A stretch of 64,000 bases of DNA from Vermamoeba vermiformis (GCA_045837725.1 JBEWZL010000216.1:310001-374000), one strand, 5' to 3'. Counted from the first letter of the stretch, positions 11,368 through 53,281 are shown. Made by a program: numbers and translations. Notes: a model not told the origin generated them from the sequence alone.

Positions 11368-14172
11368 CTAAGGCAATTGATTAATCAGCTTAGACTTGGG
11401 AGGTGGCCAAGTGAACTGATATTCTTTCTGCGGCGCGGCAAAGCAGTCAGCGAGGTTGTTTTTGAGGCCTAAGCCGTCCAAAAAGTGGCGCAGTGTCTCG
11501 GTCAAGTTGAACACGAAACCTTCGCCCAGACCAATGTCCGCAATGTTCTGAGTGTTAAAAACGCAAGGATTCAATGTGTAGAATTGACTATGGTCCGCTC
11601 TAAGTAATATCCTGTTAATTGTGTGCTTGAAAGTAGATCTGATCAATTCTGGCTACAAACCTGTAAATATCTCTCCACGAGTAGTACTGTGATTTAGAGG
11701 CCCACAATAAGCCATAGACATAGGCAGTAGGATTAGTGTGTCCCCAATAATTCAATCGCTGCGCATCCACGCGGTAGTTAGCAGATCTGCTCTCGGCTGT
11801 GGTAACTGCTAGCTGGACAGCTTTCACGGCTTCATTCAAGGCAGCAGCACGCTGAGAGGACGACAAGCTGAAGTCGCGTCGTGCATAGGCATTGCGCACC
11901 ACACGAGCACGCAGCATGGTCATGGTGGCCGAGTCCACAATCTCTTGCATGAAAATTGAGGCGTACTTGCCCGAGACACTCGACTGCAGTGCTGCGAACT
12001 GATTGGTGAACTGCGTGAATGTTTGGTCCATCGCGGCCAACAAGGGCTTGATGCTCTTGAAGTAGATATCGGGCGGGTAAGGCCACATCTGCCACAGATC
12101 AATTTTAGCAGGCTGAGTTTGACCCACACCAATAATGGCTGAAATTTGACTCCACGTGTCCCAGCCAGCCAAATAAGCAATGCCCGTCTTCTTGTCAAAG
12201 CTGTCAGGCTTAGTGCTGCCAATTTGACCGAGCACGAGCAATTGGTGCTCTGCTTCACAGTACTGGGCGAGCAGTTCCGCCAATGGATCTGCTGCCTGGC
12301 CGAAGATTCGAGTGACTTTCTTGAGGTACAACTTGAAGGCCTCGTCGTCACTGAGCGACAAGTCTAATGGGTCCCACGCAGCACGTGCAGTAATGACGTC
12401 GTTGAGCCAGTAAGTGTACTCCCAACCACTGTCAAAATTGAACGCGCCACTCATGCGCTTGCCAAGCTCAATCTCTCTGCGTGCAATCTTGCGCATGTCG
12501 TACAATCGAGCACGAGCATACAAAGGTAAGAACAAGGGCACGGTGTTGTCGTATGTGATCCAATAGGCAGTCTCACCTACAACACGTGTTAATTTGGCTT
12601 GCTAATTAGAAACACGCCAGGTAATGCACGTACCAAAGTAGCATGTCTCGCGTGTACCGGCCTCTAAGAACAAGTAATCGAACATCTGTGAAAAATCTTT
12701 TTGACCGTAAGTCGGTGCAGGGTCGTCAAAGGTGTAGAACTGAACAGTGTGCGGATAGACGCCGAGTCGTGAGTCAGCATAGTACGGCAAGAAGTTGAAG
12801 TTGATGGGACCATCGCCTAACGGGTTCTTGAACGTAGGACAAGTTTGACCCTGTAGCAGCAGTCAGCACGATTTCATTGCATAAGATAAGATGAAAGCGT
12901 ACCGATGAGATGTGAGCCTTGATCGAGGACCACGTGCCATACTTCTCGTTGGCGTAAATGGCAGTGTAATTCATCCAGGCCAACATAATGTCGCAGTTCG
13001 GGTGATTGAATTCAGTGTAACCGCTCTCTGTGGCTATGAAACCGAACTGTGCACCTTGAATGAGCCTAGATATTGACATATTGACTGTTAGGATGAATAA
13101 ATTTCACGCGTGTCGACATACCAATCAATACGATCAGCGATGCGTTGATATTGCTGTTCAATGGTGCCTGAAGTGTCGACCATGTACCAGCCGTGTTGCT
13201 GTCTCTCAGCAATGGGCACATCCGCACCAGTCAAGATGCCATATTGATAGGCAAGTTGATTGATGGTGGCCAAGCGAGTCTGACGAAGTGAGCTTGTTGC
13301 GAAGTCAGCCCAGTCCTTGGCACTCAACAGGACCCATTCGAGTCTGTTCTGTTTGTTAGCGACAAGCCACTCGCAGAACATTTCAAACTCGGGCAAGATG
13401 GAGTCAAAGCCTGCCTGGTCGTTTGGACCATTCAAACCCCAGCCTTGCAGCAATGGCGTGAGCTCCAAGGGGTGTTCAGTGTGGTAGTGCCAGCCTCTCA
13501 CGGGCCAATAAGGCTTTTCTGTATGAGTCCAGTTGCTGGTAGTGGTGGGCAAGGTGTCGGGAATGACTGGTTGGAATGGATGCAGGAACGCAAAACCTAA
13601 CTCTTCCAACAGAGCGTAGCAGCCATAATAAGCACCGAGTGGTGGACTAGCTGCAGATTTAACGGGCCAAACGAAGGGTCCATTGCCGTCAGCGGCATAC
13701 ACAGACACGCCACTCATGCCATTGAGTGCGGTAGATGAGGCCATTGAAAAGGCTTCTGGACCAGCAGCAGACAGCGCGCCGTAATCTAATAATTGCTTGC
13801 TTGTAGTGGTGGTGCCACAGCTAATTACAATCGATGATTGTGTTGGATAAATGGTATCGCTAGCTTTGACAACTTGGAGCGGATATGGCGCTGTTTTGTT
13901 GACAAAGAAGGTGATTCTGTTTTTTACAGCTGGTGAAAATTGGTCTCCAAGCTGGAGGACAACGTTTGGCTGAGCAAGAGCCGATCTAAGGCTTCGCGAA
14001 GATATTTTTTCGTGAGTGGATCTTGCGCTAACAGATAAAAATAATTAATTACGCTAATTTAAATGCAAGAAAAATAAACAATGCTTTTATTAGTTAAAAA
14101 CGATTAAACATACCATGCCATGCAGATCACATTGCAAAACGCAATTAAAAGGAGTAGCTTGAGAAGTGTCAT
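11368..14172 (-). CDS. Secreted protein of unknown function with a glycoside-hydrolase-like N-terminus
   Basis: Signal peptide MTLLKLLLLIAFCNVICMA. The YYGCYALLEELGFAFLHP...EKPYWPVRGWHYHTEHP pattern recalls the GH20/GH67-type domain-2 to barrel junction. About 6 exons. Confidence 0.6.
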
Positions 14173-44066: not shown

Positions 44067-46904
44067 ATGGCTGATCAAACAGTATGTCAAGTGATGGGGA
44101 GAATAACGTGAATATATTGGTTTAATTATTTTTAAAATAGCAAATACAACCTAACCCGAATTTTGCTTGGGTAATATCAGAAGAGCAACGTATTCAATTT
44201 CAAAAAGATTTCAAACTCGTAGATACAGACCAAGATGATTTTTTAACAGGTAAACAGCATCGAACTCGATTTATAATTACTTCTTAGTTCGTAAATAAAT
44301 AATCACAATATTTTTATGATTCATTTCAAATTCCATTTCATTAAATTTTCATATTAATAGGCGAGCAGGCCCGTGACTTATTTATGGGCAGTGGTGTACC
44401 CGTCGATGATCTCGTGCATATATGGTAATTTAATTAATATAACATGTAGAATATCAATGTGACCAGTCGTTTAAAGGCGTTTATCGGATCGAGATGGCGA
44501 CAACAGACTGAGCGAGATGGAGTTCGCTATTGCTCGTTTTCTTATATATGCACGTCTCAATGGTCAGAATGTCAACATGGAAAAAGTACCAGACAGTTTA
44601 ATTCAAAGCATTCTCGGTGCGTAACATTTCAATCGTGCTTAGTACGAAACCACAGTTACCTAATAAGGCAATAGAGAATGATCCTCGACCTGAACCAGTA
44701 AAGAAATCGAGCTCTCACAGCGACAAGAAGATGGCGCGACAAAACTCGAGTAAATTGCCCAAAGTACATCCGTCACCAAACGAGAAAGACAAAGAGAAAG
44801 AAAAAGAAAAAGAAGCGGAGAAAGAGAAAGCAAAGGCTGCAAAAGTAGCAGCACGTGACAAGAAGAAAACTGTAAGTAGTGCGAGCGGAATAATTTAGCG
44901 AGTGGTGCTCGGACTGACACGTGTCAAATGGCTCGCAGGCGCAGTTGAGTGCCAAACAGTGGGCCATCAGCAGTGGACAGCGCAAGAAGTACAAAGCAGT
45001 CTTCAAGCAACACAACAAGAACGGCTTCATCAATGGCCAGCAGGCTCTCGTGCTCTTCGGGGCCTCAAAACTGCCCAACGAGATACTCGCGCAGATTTGG
45101 TCAGTGAATAGTTCCGTGGTCGCGAATCTGTTGTCCTAATTAGGAATGCATTGTTAGGGCCCTGTCAGACATGGATCACGACAATCAGCTCAGTCAACAA
45201 GAGTTCTTTGTGGGGCTGCACTTGATCAGCAAAGTGCGCGAGGTGAGTGTCACGTGACGTGTTGGTGCGAGTCGTTGATTGACACGTGTCAAACAGGGAT
45301 ATGATCTGCCTGAGACTACACCTGCAGCACTCGTAGCGTCTGCCTCGAAGGTATGTTAGTTAATAGTGTGAAATCTCATTTGACACGTGTCATTCACTGA
45401 ACAGCGCTCCAAGTCAAGTTCCAAGCCGTCAAAGAAGTCTTCGGGCAATTTGAAGAACAGCGGCAATCAAATGACACCTGTCAATACTGATGTAGCGGCC
45501 AATCCATCAACTGTCAATCAGCCGCCTGTCACTGAAGTGCCGGTACGTATCGATGTTTGACACGTGTCATGGTTGCATTCTGACACTTACACAGCGCACT
45601 GCCTCGCGCACTGACACGTCACCCCTCGCCACGATCAACGCGACCATTAACACTTCACAACCCGTCACTAGCTCGCGTATGACACCTGTCATTCCTGAAT
45701 TCTCCATGGACCAAGAACTTGCCTTGTGGGATCAGAACAGTGACACTGTGAAGCGAGCACGTGACTATCAATTGAGTCTCGAGAACGAAGTGTCACAGAT
45801 CTCGCTTGCTATTGGTCGATTAGTGAGTAAAAATGGATATTTTACAGCTCTCTTAACAAAGTATTCCTTTTATAGAAAGTGCTCGAAGAAGGCATGGCAG
45901 ATCGATACAACTACCGCGTGGAGCAGTACAAGTTGTTGGAGTATCAAAAGAACAAGTTCCAACTCATCTTGAGCAACATCATGGAGCAGTGCAAAGGTAA
46001 GCACGTGATGGTGTTACAGGCCTCTGATTGACACGTGTCACTCGCAGGTGAGGAAGAAGAGTTGAATGAACTGACCAGCGAGCTGAAGACACTGTGGCAC
46101 GAGATGGAAGAGCAGCAAAAGATTGTTGCAGATCCGAGCTACGAGCCCCAACAGATCAAACTCAAGCGCAAACAGATCGGCGAGGAGTTCGATCACGTCA
46201 AACAGCTCTACGTGCAGTCCAAGGACGAGTACGATGCGCTCGTGAAAGAGATTGAGTTGTTGCGTGCTGAAGTGGCGCAGTCCTCGTCCAACGAACAGCT
46301 GCAGCACTTCAACGAACAGTTCGCCTCCATGCAAGTCACGGACTCTGATCGCGCCAAATTTCAAGGAGATTTCGATGCCAAGCAAGAGTTCGACTTCAGT
46401 GACTTGGACGCACAGCCAGCACAGAGTGGCTTGGACTTTGAGCACTTCAGCTTCAAGCCGAGTCAAGAGCACAATCTGGCCTCTTTCACCAACACGATGG
46501 ACATGTTGAGTCCACCGACCTTGACTGACATGCACAGCGAGTTCACTGAAGACACCGAGTCCGTGAGTCAGCACGAGGATGGCTTTGACGACTGGATGAC
46601 GCAGACAGCGATTGCCATGTCGCTCAATCAGCCTGCCACCAAAGATCAGTTGCAGCGCATTGACTCGCTCAAAGCACTCGAGCAAGGTGGAGCACCACCT
46701 GAGGACAATCCATTCGGCACGACTCCAGTCAAAGAGCGCGGTCGACGCAAGTCTAGCGTGGGCTCCACGACGAGCACTAGCAGTGCCAACAAAAAGGCGC
46801 TCAAAGAAGCGGAAAAACAGAAGAAAAAAGCTGAAAAAGATGCTAAGAAGCGCGACAAAGTCCTGCAGCGCCAAGACAGCAAGAAAAAGAACAAGGTGCA
46901 CTAG
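44067..46904 (+). CDS. EH-domain endocytic adaptor (Eps15/Ede1-like)
   Basis: Two EH domains (WVISEEQRIQF...LVHIW; WAISSGQRKKY...LPNEILAQIWALSDMDHDNQLSQQEF), a coiled coil, and an acidic tail with an NPF motif. Confidence 0.85.
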
Positions 46905-47534
46905 TCTGTTCGTGCTGCATTGTAGTTATTAGGTATTAAAGCAATTGTTTAAGCTAGTACCAGGCTTTCCCACGAACCAGTTTCCGCAACCCCTTCGTAA
47001 ACTGCCGCTTAGGTTCTTGGATTGAGTGGAGTAGCTTCTTATATTGCTGGCCAGTTCTTCAAATCAGCGGAATAAAGATACACGTCATCATGAGGTCGGA
47101 ATACGAGTTGAACTATTTTTCTTATCGGCTACATGATTAGTATTGAGAGCAATCGATTACCGAGTTTTTAGTGAGCGACGTCATCAATTTTGATAAACTA
47201 ACAGTTAATACTAGTATTATCCCTCCCGCATTTTCTGTCGGCGATAATGCCGATTGTCATCAAGTGTCAACTTGTTATTCAATACTTTTGCATAACCCGA
47301 GCTGTAGACAACATAAGCCTGGGTAATTAAGAGGTTTGTAATCTTCTTGGCTCTCACCAATTTACATCTCATTGTTGGTTATTTTCGCATCATTTTAAAT
47401 GTTGCGAAGAATAACACCACACCAACACCATTGAAGTGATAACTGTTCTCCACTTATAACTTAATGACGTGCACGGCCCTTGGAGAACTCGCCACCCGAC
47501 CCGTGCAACTCGTGGTTCGGTGGTGAGTTCCAGG

Positions 47535-50428
47535 ATGCGCATCTCAAAGTTATAGATGGCGGTTACAATAACATGCCTATTTTGCAATTAATAATTGTGT
47601 AGAGTACTCGCTTGCTTCCTGATTGTGACCTTCGTGATCCCCAGTTATCAGCAACTGGCAATGCCTCAAGCTCGCACGAGTTCCATATCGTGGAGTGATT
47701 TAAGCGGAGTTTTTTGGTTATTCGGCGGAAGTCTTCCATCTGGTGGTATGAAATCTTGGCATTTCGAGTGTGAATAATTCAATAGACGAATCTTTTATTA
47801 GATTATCTGAATGACCTTTGGTCGTACAAACCTTCGTCAAATCAATGGACGTTCATCAGCGGCAATAGCACTGCAAGCCAAACAGGAATATACGGAGATC
47901 TTGGTGTTCCATCAAGTTCAAATATTCCCGGTGGTCGAGGTAACTCTGCGTCGTGGATAGATTCGAACGGAAAACTTTGGTTGTTCGGAGGAAGTGGGTT
48001 CGGTGCAAAAGATCTTGGTAAAAATTCTTTCGATATTCCAAAGCAATACTGAAGTGTGTTATGTGTAGGCAAATTGAACGATCTTTGGAATTACAACCCC
48101 TCAACGAATCAATGGACCTGGATGGGCGGAAGTACTGAGACCTCTCCAATAGCGAGTGTCTACGGAGAGCAAGGAATACCATCAAATTCGACTGGGCCAG
48201 GCCTACGCTTTATCTCGACATCTTGGATTGATTTGAATGGAACCTTTTGGTTGTTTGGTGGAGTTGGCTACGGCGAATCTACAAGCAATTTTCGTAGGTA
48301 TTAATGTCACTTGGCATCATTAATCAAGATGATTTAGCGCCTTTGAATGACTTATGGAATTATAATCCTTCAACAAATCAATGGACTTGGATGCACGGAA
48401 GTAAGCAAGGCGATCAACAAGGCGTACTTGGAATACAAGGAACTTCGTCGTCTTCGAACTTTCCTGGGGCGCGATATGGCGCAGTCTCGTGGACGGATGT
48501 GACCGGCAGGCTTTGGCTATTCGGCGGTACTGGTGTAGGTAACGGTGGTGGAACAACATATGGTAAGTTTTGAGCTCGTAATGAACTCTAAGTACTCATG
48601 TATGTTCATTATAGGCTCCTTGAACGATCTTTGGAATTATAACCCTTCAACGAATCAATGGACCTGGATGAGTGGAAATGACACGCTGAATCAAGTTGGG
48701 GTGTTTGGAGCTCAAGGAACTCCATCAAGTGCAAATTTGCCTGGTGGTCGAGGCAGCTCTGTGTCATGGACAGATTCGAACGGAAAACTTTGGCTATTTG
48801 GTGGATCTACTTCAAGAGGTAAACTGCTGATGAAAATTGAACGCTTTCAAATGAATTAAGTGAATATTCATAAGGGAGGGTGAATGACCTCTGGAACTAC
48901 AATCCTTCAACGAATCAATGGACTTGGATCAGTGGAAGTAACCTGCGTGGGCAACCAGGTGTCTACGGAACTCAAGGAGTACCATCACCTTACAATGTTC
49001 CAGGTGCCCGTAGTGGCTCAGTGTCGTGGATTGATTCGAATGACAATTTTTGGTTATTTGGTGGTGATGGTTTGTACAACGTGAGTGGCCGGCCCGGGGT
49101 GTATTCCGGTAAGTTTCTTGTAATAGAATTCAAAGAGAGTACTAAGAATTATCATCAGGAAGCTTGAATGACCTGTGGAGTTTCAATCCGTCAACAAATC
49201 AATGGACCTGGATGAGTGGAATAGATCCGGCAACTTTAATACCGGTAGTAACGCCAGTAACACCGGTAGCTCCGCCATTAGCTGTACCTAGTGCTTCAAT
49301 TCCTTCACCTTCAGACGTACAACCTCAGGGTAGTGGTACCCCGCAAGAAGAGATTACTCAGGGTAATGGTATGCCTCAAGAAGAGATTATAGCAATTGCC
49401 GTTAGTATCCCTGTGGTAGTTGTCGGTGTCGGTGCGATAATTCTAGGTGTGTTGCTTGGATTGCGCAGAAGAAGAAAGACCAACAAACAGAAGAATCAGC
49501 AGGTTGACAATCCAATATCGCTCATTCCAATATCTGATAAGCGATCGATTCCATTCAAGTTCGTAACACTAGAGGAAGAAATAGGAGCTGGCTCTTACGG
49601 AAAAGGTAAGGCAATTGGGTGCTAATATTATTCGGTTACTAAAAACGGCTTTAATAAGTCTACATCGGTAAATGGCGATCAACGAAAGTTGCAGTCAAAG
49701 TCGGCAACGCAGCTATTTCCACCGAGCAATTTATAAAGGAGGCGGAACTTCAAATGAACATCCCTCCTCATCCCAACATTGTTCAATTGCTCGGAGTCTC
49801 AACAGATGGTCCCAGACCTTTGGTAGTGCTGGAATATTGCAACGAAGGCAGTCTCGACAAGCTCCTATTTGATAGTAACGAGAGGCTATCGACCGAAAAG
49901 CAATTAACGATTGCCCATTCAATCGCCAAAGGGCTGGATCATTTGCACGGAAACAACATTGTGCATCGCGATCTTGCTGCTCGAAATATATTAATTCACA
50001 ACGGAGAAGCAAAAATATCAGACTTCGGATTGTCGAGAGCACTGAAAGAAGAATCGCAAGTCGGAAAAACAGCCTCAACGATTGGTCCTATTCGATGGAT
50101 GGCTCCTGAATCGATAGGCAGTCGGGCCTATAGTACAAAATCTGACGTGTGGATGTTTGGAATTGTTTTGTACGAGATAACAGCGAGACAAGAGCCACAC
50201 ATTGGCGAGGATCAATTGACCAGTGCCATAAAAATTCGAGACTCGGGATTGACGCCGACGATACCCGAAGATTGTCTGCCAATACTGCGTGAGATCATGC
50301 ACATGTGCTGGCAACTGGACCCCAACATGCGACCGGTAAGTAACGTAATTATATTTGCTAAGGGTGTGCAATGATTTGATTATTTGTAGACGATGGCGGA
50401 GATCTGTCATAAACTTGATGGACAGTAA
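47535..50428 (+). CDS. Receptor kinase: signal peptide, kelch-like beta-propeller, TM helix and tyrosine-kinase(-like) domain
   Basis: Signal peptide MRISKVLACFLIVTFVIP; six NDLW-initiated repeats (consensus NDLWxYNPSTNQWTW...WLFGG); TM IIAIAVSIPVVVVGVGAIILGVLLGL followed by RRRRK; kinase motifs GAGSYG, VAVK, HRDLAARN, DFG and GPIRWMAPE. Confidence 0.9.
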
Positions 50429-50642
50429 GGCAGATAGATTGACGCTTGTTGTGTGAAAATGATGTTAACTCTCCCAAGATAAATAAACCGCCCGTCGAGC
50501 ACCACATTATATTAATATCAGCGCCACGTTTGTTAAATTTATCGCGATAATACAACTAGGACTAAATAAATTTCACCTACGGGCTGCTTGGTGAAATGAA
50601 AAAATGCAGATCCGTACTCAACTCCAGCCAGGCAAAAAGAGA

Positions 50643-50800
50643 AGTACGGCCACGGGGGGTCGAACCCCGTCGTTGAGAACTGAAAACCTTCCGACTGATT
50701 TCATGAGCGATAAACCTAGTGTCATCATAATGAAATGATGTTTCGTATTAAGTATGTAAACCGCCACGACTCTCAACGCCATCCGCTATGCAGCCGTACT
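50643..50800 (-). ncRNA. tRNA-like structured Pol III-type RNA (not a canonical tRNA; vault-RNA-like, tRNA-derived ncRNA or SINE)
   Basis: Terminal stem AGTACGGCT/GGCCGTACT; A-box-like GCATAGCGG; stem CGTTGAGA/TCTCAACG; T-arm/B-box ACGGGG-TTCGACC-CCCCGT; TTTTT terminator at 50634-50638. Confidence 0.7.
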
Positions 50801-51108
50801 GTGAATATGCCGTATTCTACTGCTTAATTCTGGTCCAACAGGCGCTACACCAAAAGTTATGGGATGAAGACTACCGCGGTCTTGCTTTCTGTTAAAATTC
50901 GCAAAAAGTGTGAGCAACCTGTTTGTTACATCTTTCTGTTGTCTCTGTATGTCCATTCTGTCGGTTAGCTAAGGTCTACTCTTGCCTGGTTCTTTCTTTA
51001 ATTGCTCTTCTAATTGTAACAATTCACGTCATTAATAATAACACTGCGCTGTTCCATTCAACGGATTTTAATGAACATAATACAAAGGGAAGAGGTCTTG
51101 CTATCTAT

Positions 51109-51929
51109 TTACACCTTGAGTACTTTAACCTCGTCATTGATCGTATTCAGCGTGGCAATCAGTTGTTCTACTTCAGATCTGGTCAGTTCCAGTACGACGT
51201 CTTTCTTGCCGCTATCGGAGTTGATTGTTAAGTTCAATAGGAGGACTGCCTTTCTAGTCGTGGCAATTTTGTCACTAGCCATAGTCAACTGATGATAACA
51301 ACGGTCAGTACGCGTTGAATTTCAGATGCGCTACTTACATTCAATTTCCAATCAAAGTCACTCAAATATGACTTAGAAATGCGTGTCGAATCGTCAACTA
51401 ACTGTTTTCTAATCTCACTGTTGCGTGCCTTCAGTACACTCAATATAACTGGTACAAATTCTTTTGATACATCTGCGCGCGTCAGATCAGCCTCGATCTG
51501 TTGTTGTATTCATCGATTAGCTCGATTCATTGTCACTGCTTATCATTACCTGTTCACCGCTCAAAGACAGACTAACAGCTTGCTTCACAAGTATTTTGTA
51601 GGCCTCAACAATGGCATCAAGTTCTGCTGCGTCGATCGAGGAGTAATTTTCAGCGTTGAATTCTGCGCCTAATGAATCGACGACGTGATGCAAGAACTGA
51701 TGGACGATTAGTATTATTGAAGGTAATTAATGACCAAAATAATGGAAAATTAATACGAAAAATACAAATAAATAATCAGCCATGAGACTAGGCCTAGTTA
51801 AATATGTACCTGTTCAACACCGAGTTGACTGAATTTTTCAATGCGTTTCAAACACTTTTTGAGCAACACGCGCTTGAAGGGACTGTTGTCTGGCAAACAC
51901 GCAAAATCACTCTGTCTCTCCTCTGCCAT
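51109..51929 (-). CDS. COMMD8: COMM domain-containing protein 8
   Basis: Four exons; COMM domain YLSDFDWKLNLTMASDKIA...VLLLNLTI...VVLELTRSEVEQLIATL. Confidence 0.8.
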
Positions 51930-52114
51930 GCTGTATAATTGACTATAGTGCTGTATCTATAATTAATATATTGATGCACGCGATGAGATCGAGGCTGTGC
52001 TATTCAACTGCAGCGAGTGCAATAAAAAATAATTTGATTTTAATGGATCAAAGTATTGCAGCTCGCAATAGAGCACCATATATCAGTGTAATATAATACC
52101 ATTAATTATATATA

Positions 52115-53281
52115 ATGGGCTGTTGTAGTTCAGCACCAGACGAAGAAGGTAATGACGACTGTTTTCAATATTTCGCGATCTGATCTAATCCGCTCTATTT
52201 GCCTGCACAGAGCGACGAGGTCTATTAATTAATGACAGCAGGTCAGACCATGACCCTTATTCATCAGCCACCAACAAAGTATACACCTCGTCAAAATTTG
52301 AACGGATACCAAACAACCCAAAGGGAATATTAGACATGCACGGGTAATAATGCTGTTTTAATTATGTTAATTATTATAACATTATTTGTGATTTATTCGA
52401 AAGGAATTGATAGTAATTCTTATTATTTAACAATAATTTTTGATTAAACAAATATAATGAGCGAATCCACGCACAACCTCTACAACACAAAGCACGTCAA
52501 TAGTATGTGTAAAATGAGACTTTCATTGTGCTTGAGTGTCTTTGTACTCAGAGGATGCACACGCTCATATCACACAAGCACAGCTCTATGTGCATCACTG
52601 CCTACCAATCAATTAACGTCTATTTTTAGCAACGTGTCCGAGACACCAGTCGAGACATCGAATTGGGAGCAGAAAGTGCTCGACATTATCGTGCAACGCG
52701 CACTCAAGTAAGTGTCACAGACTTGCCTTATTTGGCAATCACCGACTCGCAGCACTGACCGTTCATGAACGCAGGGATTTCATTGATATTTCACAGACCA
52801 CTGAATTCGCAGGCGCGAGTTACGACACGAGCCGAGAGCGCAGCGAGTTGTATCAGTACGTAGATCCACCCGCTGTTTAGTGTATCGCACAGGACACTAG
52901 GCGTGCTCAGTATATGTACCTCTATGCGCGCTCTAATGTGCCCCACAGGACGATGAAGAAGCACAAGAAGTTGGCGAGCAAGACCTCCAAGCTGAATGTG
53001 CTGTCGCTGCCCAAGCCCTCGCTGAGCCACAGTGCCCTCACCGCACCCGCCGTGCTGAATCGACCTGACGTGCTCAATCAGCCCGAGAAGGAGTTTGTAC
53101 GATATTGAACAGACACTAGGCACAGTGGTGTAGTGACTCACTGCTCCTAATCGATTAGGTCACGCTGTGTGCGCGCAATCTGACCAAAGTGCTGCACGAC
53201 GTCAAGCCGAGTGATGTGGGCTCGTTGGTCGTCATGTTCTCCCCTTCACCTTCCGCGCCGATCCACGACATGCATGTATAG
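52115..53281 (+). CDS. LAMTOR1: Ragulator subunit LAMTOR1 (p18)-like
   Basis: MGCC myristoyl/palmitoyl motif, acidic dileucine EERRGLL, EQKVLDIIVQRALKDFIDIS and C-terminal DVGSLVVMF; 5 exons. Confidence 0.7.

What the first reader, a model, noticed from the sequence alone, without database searches (positions are those of the whole stretch)
50634..50800. Approximately 158-nt tRNA-mimic Pol III RNA with an approximately 90-nt insert in place of the anticodon loop
Seen (minus strand): a 9-bp closing stem AGTACGGCT/GGCCGTACT; an A-box-like GCATAGCGG with at most a weak D-stem; an 8-bp perfect stem CGTTGAGA/TCTCAACG enclosing about 90 nt; a 6-bp T-arm with loop TTCGACC; and a T5 terminator just downstream. 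The insert holds a CATCAT/ATGATG hairpin and three GGTTT motifs. The 5' part loosely follows tRNA-His(GTG) spacing, but the acceptor register, U8 and U33 do not fit a functional tRNA. Known: vault RNAs have a terminal stem, internal A/B boxes, a variable centre and an oligo-U end; the tmRNA tRNA-like domain also replaces the anticodon arm with a long stem. Inference: a candidate undescribed ncRNA (e.g. a protist vault-type RNA) or a tRNA-derived SINE. Intact pairing argues against simple decay.
Basis: partly seen in the sequence, partly recalled or inferred. Interest (0 to 1): 0.75.

Follow-up and report, generated by a model that had tools for sequence, protein, structure and literature searches.

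The report
tRNA-like RNA gene with long insert
A single-copy gene in a microbial eukaryote encodes a roughly 160-base RNA with tRNA-like ends, no normal D-arm, and a conserved 100-base rod in place of the anticodon arm, so it is probably a tRNA-derived regulatory or scaffold RNA, not a working tRNA.

Summary
Every stem, the T-arm/B box, the hairpin and the T5 run lie at 50634-50800 on the minus strand. ARAGORN and Rfam in default mode find nothing. With introns allowed, ARAGORN makes a marginal tRNA(tca) call with an 85-nt intron. Thirty shuffled windows gave one call, and none with an intron of 100 nt or less. The B box is the only one in the 64 kb. RNA-seq reads filed under the same species label carry a diverged homolog. 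I compared it with the window by eye, over 32 base pairs. Four pairs changed on both sides and still pair. These lie in the 8-bp stem, the stem inside the insert and the T stem. The putative 3-bp D stem is broken in the homolog. Thirty-six of the first 38 laid bases (two stem bases, then the insert) are identical. Identity ends 2 nt after the T5 run. Some reads end inside the insert in A-runs, which points to transcription of this strand. My best reading (0.5) is a tRNA-derived Pol III non-coding RNA whose long arm is the constrained part. It may stay whole, or the tRNA splicing enzyme may cut it at a plausible 37/38 site. Rival readings are an odd intron-containing decoding tRNA and a decaying relic. 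Vault identity could not be tested. No genome and no further relatives could be obtained.

The parts
50634..50800 (-). Whole unit: presumed Pol III primary transcript from about p1 (A after CAC) to the T5 run.
   Evidence: Sequence reading. ARAGORN -i calls c[50644,50797]. In the homolog, identity ends at 50632, 2 nt past the T5 run.
50792..50800 (-). 5' strand of the 9-bp closing (acceptor-like) stem, p1-9.
   Evidence: Complementary to 50643-50651.
50643..50651 (-). 3' strand of the closing stem, p150-158.
   Evidence: Identical in the homolog reads.
50779..50788 (-). A-box-like motif TAGCGGATGG inside the 12-13-nt single-stranded joiner (p10-22). There is no conserved D stem.
   Evidence: ARAGORN's 3-bp D stem keeps 1 of 3 pairs in the homolog (my reading).
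50771..50778 (-). P1, 5' strand (p23-30). Its last 5 bp are the tRNA-type anticodon stem.
   Evidence: In the homolog, 7 of 8 pairs are kept, two of them after changes on both sides.
50671..50678 (-). P1, 3' strand (p123-130).
   Evidence: Same as for the 5' strand.
50679..50770 (-). 92-nt insert enclosed by P1. It forms a rod of P2, P2b and P3 plus a 22-nt single-stranded 3' segment.
50760..50769 (-). P2, 5' strand (p32-41).
   Evidence: Pairs with p90-100 across a bulged U95. In the homolog C38-G93 becomes U-A and G40-U91 becomes G-C.
50701..50711 (-). P2, 3' strand (p90-100).
   Evidence: Same as for the 5' strand.
50741..50759 (-). 19-nt 5' side of the internal loop (p42-60), nearly invariant. 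It is the candidate partner-binding site.
   Evidence: 1 change in 19 nt in the homolog, at 50742. Partly paired as P2b (p48-52 with p83-87) in my model.
50723..50740 (-). P3 hairpin CATCAT-loop-ATGATG (p61-78).
   Evidence: In the homolog the stem is unchanged and the loop differs and is 1 nt shorter.
50679..50700 (-). 22-nt single-stranded 3' segment (p101-122). It holds the possible 3' splice site (50680|50679) and ARAGORN's anticodon loop TTTCAGT (p116-122).
   Evidence: Only its last 2 nt are readable in the homolog.
50652..50670 (-). T-arm (p131-149), 5-6 bp with loop TTCGACC. It contains the B box GGTTCGACCCC (50656-50666).
   Evidence: In the homolog C132-G148 becomes A-U.
50634..50638 (-). 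T5 run, the presumed Pol III terminator, starting 7 nt after the discriminator-like A156.
   Evidence: The trailer p159-169 is identical in the homolog, then the flank diverges.
50764..50765 (-). Possible canonical 5' splice site (after tRNA position 37 = p36). Splicing here would give anticodon CGU.
   Evidence: My reading. In-silico removal of 85 nt here gives an ARAGORN tRNA-Thr(cgt) call.

Best explanation
This is a single-copy, tRNA-derived gene for a small non-coding RNA. It is most likely transcribed by RNA polymerase III from internal promoter elements: an A-box-like motif and a perfect B box. Transcription would end at the T5 run. The RNA folds as a three-way junction. One arm is a 9-10-bp acceptor-like closing stem stacked on a canonical T-arm. 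A 12-13-nt unpaired joiner replaces the D-arm. The third arm is a roughly 108-nt rod (P1-P2-P2b-P3) where a tRNA has its anticodon arm. I infer that the acceptor/T minihelix keeps the promoter. I also infer that it gives the RNA tRNA-type handling: La binding, possibly RNase P and RNase Z cutting at p3|4 and after A156, and possibly CCA addition. The rod, with its nearly invariant 19-nt internal loop, would be the part that binds the partner. The RNA is not a decoding tRNA. Whether the rod stays in the mature RNA (my estimate about 60%) or is cut out by the tRNA splicing endonuclease at the canonical 37/38 site (about 40%) is open. The cut-out form would be an 85-nt linear or circular RNA, as with tricRNAs. 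Shown here: the anatomy, the departure from chance, and conservation with compensatory changes in one homolog. RNA reads of that homolog with A-runs at internal 3' ends are also shown. Inferred: Pol III transcription, end processing, and the rod as effector.
For: Detection and chance. ARAGORN -i makes its only call of the 64-kb window here. It makes 1 call in 30 shuffled windows, and 0 with introns of 100 nt or less. The only B-box match of the window lies here, against 0.17 expected. T5 follows 7 nt after the discriminator position.

Homolog reads. Raw RNA reads under the same species label were laid: 26, 20 and 4 reads from about 13 million records read per run. They fit only two blocks. One is 50735-50772, with 36 of 38 bases identical. 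The other is 50632-50668, with 36 of 37 identical. The rest of each read is unlike the window.

Pair comparison (my reading). I read the printed loose ends against the window by eye. Both partners of 32 base pairs are readable. 25 are unchanged. 4 changed on both sides and still pair: p23:130 C-G to G-U, p28:125 A-U to U-A, p38:93 C-G to U-A, p132:148 C-G to A-U. 1 changed G-U to G-C. 2 are broken: p25:128 and p52:83. By my own arithmetic about 0.4 compensated doubles are expected if the 12 changes fell at random (Poisson P about 0.001).

D stem. The 3-bp D stem needed for a cloverleaf keeps 1 of 3 pairs in the homolog. The alternative extension of P1 keeps 2 of 3.

Rate of change. The tRNA-like 'exon' stems change at about the same rate as the insert: about 10 of 46 against about 12 of 67 readable positions. 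A decoding tRNA would be far more constrained.

Boundary. Identity stops 2 nt after the T5 run, which marks the functional 3' boundary.

Transcription. Loose ends made of T-runs abut 50738-50741, and about 50719 in run X23. These are A-runs after internal 3' ends on the minus strand, at four different positions. They point to RNA of this strand.

Energy. The covariation-supported structure scores -45.7 kcal/mol against an MFE of -49.5.
Against: Only one homolog is known. It is read from consensus loose ends of few reads. The 3' partners of P1, P2 and the T stem rest on 3-6 reads of run X22, with agreement 0.67-0.83. I aligned them by eye.

No read matches this exact locus at 99% or more (0 of 50 laid reads). 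The same runs put no read on the neighbouring kinase exon. Expression of this locus itself is therefore not shown, and the homolog may be a paralog or the ortholog of another strain.

Four reads run 58 nt past the T5 run. They could be DNA or read-through.

The A-runs could be templated in other copies.

Folding energy is only modestly better than shuffles (z = -2.28 and -1.56).

ARAGORN does call the element a tRNA once introns are allowed. The canonical splice geometry is present (position 32 G pairs with C at intron -3, with a 3-nt bulge at the 3' cut), so a real if odd tRNA is not excluded.

No partner, no function and no wider conservation are known. Scans of metagenome and viral contigs found nothing.
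Confidence: 0.5

Rival explanations
1. It is a genuine decoding tRNA gene with an 85-nt intron. One version is tRNA-Thr(CGU), spliced at the canonical 37/38 site. The other is a UCA-anticodon tRNA (UGA suppressor or recoding tRNA), if the intron sits at 31/32 as ARAGORN places it.
For: ARAGORN -i calls tRNA(tca) with an 85-nt intron. In-silico removal of 85 nt at any of 8 registers gives a tRNA call: tca at 31/32 to 33/34, cca at 34/35, cga at 35/36, and cgt at 36/37 to 38/39. The acceptor plus T stack is 7+5 bp, with T-loop TTCGACC and U33. The 5-bp anticodon stem is kept through an A-U to U-A swap in the homolog. The geometry described for Drosophila pre-tRNAs is present: a proximal base pair at position 32, 6 nt to the exon end, and a 3-nt bulge at the 3' cut (PMC6614914, passages read). 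Long tRNA introns are known; an earlier finding of this scan (e1-560373) reports 110 nt in Ostreococcus.
Against: The call is marginal. The unspliced form is lost at 105% of the default threshold and the spliced forms at 110%. Default ARAGORN and Rfam give nothing. There is no U8. Region 8-26 is 4 nt short. The 3-bp D stem is not kept in the homolog, and G18 changes to A. The in-silico spliced RNA does not fold as a cloverleaf. Under the canonical cut, G32 and G37 flank a CGU anticodon; from recalled knowledge both are atypical. The exons diverge as fast as the insert. A UCA anticodon would read UGA, yet the window's long ORFs are uninterrupted under the standard code.
Confidence: 0.17
2. It is a decaying relic: a tRNA pseudogene carrying an old intron or insertion, or a lone member of a tRNA-derived SINE family. 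It would have no function of its own.
For: The D region is degenerate and tRNA detector scores are marginal. A near-repeat of the 5' end (AGTACGG..CTGCAT) lies 26 nt past the T5 run at 50604-50618. Some homolog reads carry A-runs that could be retrocopy tails.
Against: All helices are intact. Four double changes keep pairing in the homolog, and identity ends sharply after the terminator. The element occurs once in the window. It has no significant similarity to its flanks: 50 of 300 shuffles score as well. The insert is internal to the tRNA-like fold, whereas SINEs are built as head, body and tail (recalled). The A-runs sit at four different internal positions, which fits RNA-level tailing better than retrocopies.
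Confidence: 0.15
3. It is specifically the vault RNA, or another known RNP RNA such as a Y RNA, of this organism.
For: It shares the vault RNA gene plan: a Pol III type 2 promoter with box A and box B (PMC7904556, passages read). A closing stem between the 5' and 3' ends, a variable centre and an oligo-T end are recalled features of vault RNAs. The only named homolog of the MUS81-like ORF is dictyostelid, at 28% identity. Vaults are known in Dictyostelium (reference list of PMC7904556).
Against: Rfam's vault and Y RNA models give no match at E up to 10. The length of 158-167 nt exceeds the 88-140 nt quoted for vault RNAs. The organism's lineage is not established, and presence of the major vault protein could not be checked. 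Nothing here ties the RNA to a vault.
Confidence: 0.1

Closest known systems
Intron-containing nuclear pre-tRNAs whose long, structured introns are released as stable RNAs (tricRNAs, e.g. Drosophila CR31905 with a 113-nt intron; PMC4536317 and PMC6614914, passages read)
   Same: The insert sits in the anticodon arm. The insert's helix is conserved through covariant pairs. A G-C pair is possible between position 32 and intron -3, with a 3-nt bulge at the 3' cut and 6 nt from that pair to the exon end. The gene has an internal Pol III promoter and an oligo-T end.
   Different: The 'exons' here do not make a canonical tRNA: no D stem and no U8. They diverge as fast as the insert. The 5' cut site would lie inside helix P2 and not in a bulge. 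An 18-nt bulge interrupts the anticodon-intron helix. Neither splicing nor circles are shown.
Vault RNAs (Rfam RF00006)
   Same: A Pol III gene with internal box A and box B (PMC7904556). Recalled shared features are a terminal stem joining the two ends, a variable central domain, a B-box region folded as a hairpin, and an oligo-U tail.
   Different: No Rfam match. It is longer than the 88-140 nt range. It has a true tRNA-type T-arm and a 12-bp acceptor/T stack. No link to vault proteins could be tested.
tRNA-like domain of tmRNA
   Same: An acceptor stem plus T-arm, a D region without a stem, and the anticodon arm replaced by a long helix leading to a large insert.
   Different: This is a nuclear eukaryotic locus. 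ARAGORN's tmRNA mode finds nothing, and Rfam has no tmRNA hit. There is no tag reading frame, and the element is far shorter.
tRNA-like small RNAs and tRNA-derived Pol III RNAs (mascRNA/menRNA, BC1, herpesvirus TMERs, tRNA-derived SINEs)
   Same: tRNA ancestry, and an acceptor/T minihelix that RNase P and RNase Z can recognise. The best, non-significant Rfam alignment is to mascRNA-menRNA, at 14.3 bits against a gathering score of 42.5, E = 8.6.
   Different: In those RNAs the extra sequence follows or precedes the tRNA-like part. Here it is nested inside it. mascRNA is cut from a Pol II transcript. SINEs are multi-copy.

Membership tests
Canonical cytosolic tRNA (Rfam RF00005) | Scores at or above threshold with tRNA detectors. 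| tested here: inconclusive
   ARAGORN default: 0 genes. Rfam at gathering threshold: 0 hits. Rfam at E up to 10: no tRNA hit, but that model cannot bridge an 85-nt insert. ARAGORN -i: 1 call, lost at 105% of the threshold. The spliced form could not be given to Infernal.
Canonical cytosolic tRNA (Rfam RF00005) | Cloverleaf with a 3-4-bp D stem, U8, A14 and G18G19. | tested here: not met
   Position 8 is C. Region 8-26 has 15 nt. The only D stem is 3 bp and keeps 1 of 3 pairs in the homolog. G18 becomes A there. The spliced forms do not fold as a cloverleaf.
Canonical cytosolic tRNA (Rfam RF00005) | T-arm with a 5-bp stem, a T-loop of the TTCRANY type, and a 7-bp acceptor stem stacked on it. 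| tested here: met
   CGGGG-TTCGACC-CCCCG plus a 7-bp acceptor stem with two G-U pairs. The T-stem pair 49:65 covaries in the homolog.
Eukaryotic intron-containing pre-tRNA | Intron at 37/38, a proximal (A-I) base pair at position 32, and a 3-nt bulge at the 3' cut (PMC6614914). | tested here: inconclusive
   The geometry can be drawn: G at p31 pairs with C at p119, and the bulge is p120-122. A single pair has about an even chance of forming. No spliced reads were seen, but spliced homolog reads could not have been laid.
tRNA-Sec | UCA anticodon, 9/4 or 8/5 acceptor/T stems, 6-bp D stem, long variable arm and G73 (recalled features). | tested here: not met
   UCA arises only with a non-canonical intron position. 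The variable region is 4 nt. There is no 6-bp D stem. The discriminator is A. Rfam's tRNA-Sec model gives no hit.
Vault RNA (RF00006) | Match to the family model. | tested here: not met
   No match at gathering score or at E up to 10.
Vault RNA (RF00006) | Pol III type 2 gene with box A and box B, and a length of 88-140 nt (PMC7904556). | tested here: inconclusive
   The B box is perfect. The A box is one base short of the 11-nt consensus. The length of 158-167 nt is above the quoted range.
Vault RNA (RF00006) | Association with the major vault protein or TEP1. | not testable with these tools
   No genome is held, and no biochemical data exist.
tmRNA | tRNA-like domain plus a tag reading frame; detected by ARAGORN -m or Rfam. 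| tested here: not met
   ARAGORN -m finds nothing, even at 80% of the threshold. Rfam gives no hit.
tRNA-derived SINE | Many dispersed copies with target-site duplications and a tail. | tested here: inconclusive
   There is 1 copy in the 64 kb. Flanking similarity is not above chance. Genome-wide copy number is not testable.
Box C/D snoRNA | Box C RUGAUGA together with box D CUGA near the ends (recalled). | tested here: not met
   AUGAUGA is present at p72-78, but it is the 3' strand of a perfect hairpin. No CUGA occurs in p1-167 (reading).

The most novel reading that the evidence does not exclude
This is a previously undescribed class of protist Pol III RNP RNA built on a tRNA chassis. The D-arm is lost. 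The anticodon arm is replaced by a roughly 100-nt rod that is conserved through covariation and carries an invariant 19-nt internal loop. The tRNA-like ends would serve only for transcription, processing and stability. Possibly it is the long-sought vault-type or Ro-type RNA of this lineage, or a tRNA-scaffolded precursor that releases a functional intron RNA outside animals.
Probability: 0.3. Interest if true: 0.7.

Novelty: new variant of a known kind. Interest (0 to 1): 0.5.

Why it matters
tRNA genes are a recurrent source of new Pol III non-coding RNAs, such as vault-like RNAs, SINE-derived RNAs and tricRNAs. Almost all characterised cases come from animals, plants and their viruses. This would be a case from an uncultivated-type microbial eukaryote in which the insert is nested in the fold and conserved. 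It would give a natural example of a tRNA scaffold presenting a structured RNA. It would also give a concrete candidate for the unknown small RNP RNAs of protists. If it is instead a working tRNA, then a cytosolic decoder without a D-arm and with a conserved 85-nt intron would itself be unusual.

Tried and rejected
- **Default detectors.** ARAGORN default and tmRNA modes found nothing. Rfam at gathering threshold found nothing. At E up to 10 it gave only three noise hits: mascRNA-menRNA 14.3 bits, speF 11.3 and H19_2 10.6.
- **Genome.** The window's own genome is not held, so copy number and the presence of MVP, TSEN, RtcB or Sec machinery could not be checked.
- **Earlier findings of this scan.** Nothing for this genome or sequence. 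A word search gave one unrelated long-intron tRNA in Ostreococcus.
- **Relatives.** Two metagenome scans and one viral-contig scan, using motifs conserved between the window and the homolog, returned 0 loci.
- **Lineage.** The protein atlas returned only bacterial look-alikes for the ORF at 11615-12601. The MUS81-like ORF had one named hit, a dictyostelid at 28% identity. The kinase domain has many metagenome relatives at 50-74% identity but no informative names. The lineage stays open.
- **Tandem duplicate or target-site duplication.** Suggested by the near-repeat at 50604-50618 and short repeats at offsets 273 and 276. Rejected because local alignment of the element to its flanks is no better than 50 of 300 shuffles.
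- **tRNA-Sec, box C/D snoRNA, tmRNA.** Rejected on features; see Membership tests.
- **GGTTT motifs.** The second of the three is changed in the homolog, the first is kept and the third is unreadable. I give them no weight.
- **Public runs.** They say nothing about habitat.
- **Run X5.** It covers only the kinase mRNA, not the element. A hole there proves nothing.
- **Literature.** Searches listed no paper describing such an RNA. That is only as wide as those term sets.
- **Not seen.** Supplementary Figure S6 of PMC6614914, on the diversity of BHB-like motifs. It could bear on how unusual the splice geometry is.

Full report
**Numbering.** I number the element on the minus strand, with p1 = 50800 and p = 50801 - window coordinate.

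**1. The observation**

- A 9-bp closing stem: p1-9 AGTACGGCT with p150-158 GGCCGTACT. A tenth G-U pair is possible.
- An A-box-like TAGCGGATGG at p13-22.
- A perfect 8-bp stem: p23-30 CGTTGAGA with p123-130 TCTCAACG, enclosing 92 nt.
- The CATCAT/ATGATG hairpin at p61-78.
- Three GGTTT motifs.
- A 6-bp T-arm with loop TTCGACC at p131-149.
- A T5 run at p163-167 (50634-50638).

The A-box-like motif fits TRGCNNA-N-GG. It does not fit the 11-nt form, and a motif that short is not above chance.

**2. More than chance?**

- The B box GGTTCGANNCC occurs once in the 64 kb, here, against 0.17 expected.
- ARAGORN with introns allowed makes a single call in the window, this element.
- In 30 dinucleotide-shuffled copies of the window it made 1 call, with a 207-nt intron. 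It made 0 calls when introns were limited to 100 nt, and 0 without introns.
- The 161-nt RNA folds at -49.6 kcal/mol, z = -2.28, with 4 of 200 shuffles as good.
- The long arm alone gives z = -1.56, with 15 of 200 as good.

The composite is therefore real, but folding energy alone is weak evidence.

**3. What the detectors say**

Default ARAGORN finds no tRNA or tmRNA. Rfam finds nothing at gathering scores and only three noise alignments at E up to 10.

With introns allowed, ARAGORN reports 'tRNA-SeC(tca)': 69 nt mature, an 85-nt intron placed at 31/32, a 3-bp D stem and a 4-nt variable region. The name only reflects the anticodon. None of the structural marks of tRNA-Sec is present.

The call is marginal. 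It disappears at 105% of the default threshold. In-silico spliced forms disappear at 110%. Removing the same 85 nt at the canonical 37/38 register gives anticodon CGU instead.

**4. Surroundings**

The window is eukaryotic nuclear DNA with about 43% G+C. It has long ORFs under the standard code.

The element lies in an intergenic gap, on the strand opposite a tyrosine-kinase-like gene (PF07714, E = 1e-64). A contig of run X5 shows that gene's last intron, 50335-50388, GT..AG, 54 nt. The spliced frame then stops at TAA 50426-50428.

Other genes in the window are MUS81-like and RADX-like. The only named homolog of the MUS81-like ORF is dictyostelid, at 28% identity, so the lineage is not settled.

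The element is single-copy in the window. A near-repeat of its 5' end at 50604-50618 and two collinear 9-10-mers further on are not supported as a duplicate copy. No genome is held.

**5. A homolog in RNA reads**

This is the most informative result. Three raw RNA-seq runs filed under the same species label as the best DNA holders were laid on 50200-51000. Of about 13 million records read per run, 26, 20 and 4 reads were laid. None was 99% or more alike. All but one fitted only in part.

The reads pile on two blocks.
- 50735-50772 (p29-66), with two fixed differences at 50763 and 50742.
- 50632-50668 (p133-169), with one fixed difference at 50653.

They then run on into sequence unlike the window. 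No read lies on the kinase exon. So these runs contain a diverged homolog, and not this allele. It could be a paralog, or the ortholog of another strain.

I read the printed loose-end consensus against the window by eye, ungapped apart from a hairpin loop 1 nt shorter. Both partners of 32 base pairs can be compared.

| Outcome in the homolog | Pairs |
|---|---|
| Unchanged | 25 |
| Changed on both sides, still pair | 4 (p23:130 C-G to G-U; p28:125 A-U to U-A; p38:93 C-G to U-A; p132:148 C-G to A-U) |
| G-U improved to G-C | 1 (p40:91) |
| Broken | 2 (p25:128, p52:83) |

With 12 changes among 64 paired bases, I expect about 0.4 compensated doubles by chance. That is my own arithmetic, and it gives a Poisson P of about 0.001.

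Several further points follow from the same comparison.
- The pair p38:93 lies inside the insert, so the insert's helix P2 is under selection for pairing.
- The 3-bp D stem of the ARAGORN model keeps only 1 of 3 pairs. The same bases read as an extension of P1 keep 2 of 3.
- The 19-nt 5' side of the internal loop (p42-60) has 1 change.
- The P3 stem is unchanged, while its loop differs.
- The trailer through T5 plus 2 nt is identical, and the flank then diverges at once.
- The readable 'exon' positions outside the T-loop and trailer differ at about 10 of 46. The insert differs at about 12 of 67.

Caveat: the 3' partners rest on 3-6 reads of one run, with agreement 0.67-0.83.

**6. Transcription**

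Several groups of reads have T-runs directly abutting 50738, 50739 and 50741. In run X23 a T-run comes after about 50719. On the minus strand these are A-runs added after four different internal 3' ends. This fits oligo(dT)-captured, tailed 3'-truncated RNAs of the minus strand.

It is also what a poly(A)-type library would be expected to recover from a Pol III RNA under surveillance. That last link is my inference. The yeast precedent, PMC4937561, I saw only as a listing and abstract.

Four reads of X22 continue 58 nt beyond the T5 run. These could be read-through or DNA. Expression of this exact locus is not shown.

**7. Interpretation**

The anatomy is a three-way junction.
- An acceptor-like stem stacked on a canonical T-arm. 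This is the 12-bp minihelix that RNase P, RNase Z and the CCA enzyme recognise (established knowledge).
- A 12-13-nt joiner carrying the A-box-like motif.
- A roughly 108-nt rod.

The tRNA-like stems evolve at near the same rate as the insert, and only pairing is preserved. The D-arm is absent and not conserved. I therefore think this is not a decoding tRNA. I read it as a tRNA-derived Pol III non-coding RNA whose constrained, and so probably functional, part is the rod with its invariant loop (confidence 0.5).

Two maturation routes remain open. The RNA may stay whole. Its model structure scores -45.7 kcal/mol against an MFE of -49.5. Alternatively, the tRNA splicing endonuclease may cut it. 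The canonical geometry can be drawn: G at position 32 (p31) pairs with C at intron -3 (p119), there are 6 nt to the exon end, and a 3-nt bulge (p120-122) holds the 3' cut. These are the regularities reported for Drosophila pre-tRNAs (PMC6614914).

Drosophila CR31905 shows that a long tRNA intron with covariant pairs can be the stable product (PMC4536317). Against splicing, the 5' cut would fall inside helix P2, and an 18-nt bulge interrupts the anticodon-intron helix.

**8. Comparison with known kinds**

| Known kind | What matches | What does not |
|---|---|---|
| Vault RNA | Gene plan: box A and box B, Pol III type 2, 88-140 nt (PMC7904556) | No match to the Rfam model; longer; no testable link to vault proteins |
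| tmRNA tRNA-like domain | General shape | Fails every tmRNA test |
| tRNA-derived SINE | tRNA ancestry | Not built as head, body and tail |
| Pre-tRNA with a functional intron (tricRNA type) | Closest mechanistic analogue | The exons here are no longer a tRNA |

I file it as a new variant of a known kind.

**9. Limits**

- Only one homolog is known, from few reads.
- There is no genome, no wider relatives and no small-RNA data.
- The literature searches were narrow.
- Supplements, including Figure S6 of PMC6614914, were not seen.

Noticed in passing
window 50335-50388 (+): A 54-nt GT..AG intron near the 3' end of the tyrosine-kinase-like gene. It is shown by a spliced contig of run X5. After splicing, the reading frame ends at TAA 50426-50428, not at the unspliced stop at 50372-50374.
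   Followed up: partly
window 50598-50618 (-): 26 nt past the T5 run lies AGTACGGATCTGCAT, a near-repeat of the element's first 13 nt. A T6 run follows directly. It could pair with the 3' acceptor strand in a read-through transcript. It is only partly kept in the homolog's flank, and alignment statistics do not support a duplicate copy.
   Followed up: partly
window 11615-14044 (-): Two adjacent long ORFs (328 and 318 aa). Their nearest look-alikes in the protein atlas are all bacterial hypothetical proteins; some clusters carry Glyco_H_20C_C or DUF4838. This may be a bacterial-type gene in a eukaryotic contig. It is a lead only.
   Followed up: no
window 46032-46925 (both strands): Long open frames of 290 and 295 aa overlap on opposite strands over a charged, low-complexity (E/K/Q-rich) coding region. 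The minus-strand frame is probably a mirror artefact.
   Followed up: no
window 49000-52500: Runs labelled as at least eight other organisms, and as water and aquifer metagenomes, hold 5-32% of the sampled words of this stretch. Of these only X5 was laid. The organism, or a close relative, may be a common companion in cultures and water samples.
   Followed up: no
window 49658-50428 (+): The kinase domain has very many relatives at 50-74% identity in metagenome protein sets, often fused to Kelch-type repeats. This suggests a large receptor-kinase-like family in this lineage.
   Followed up: no
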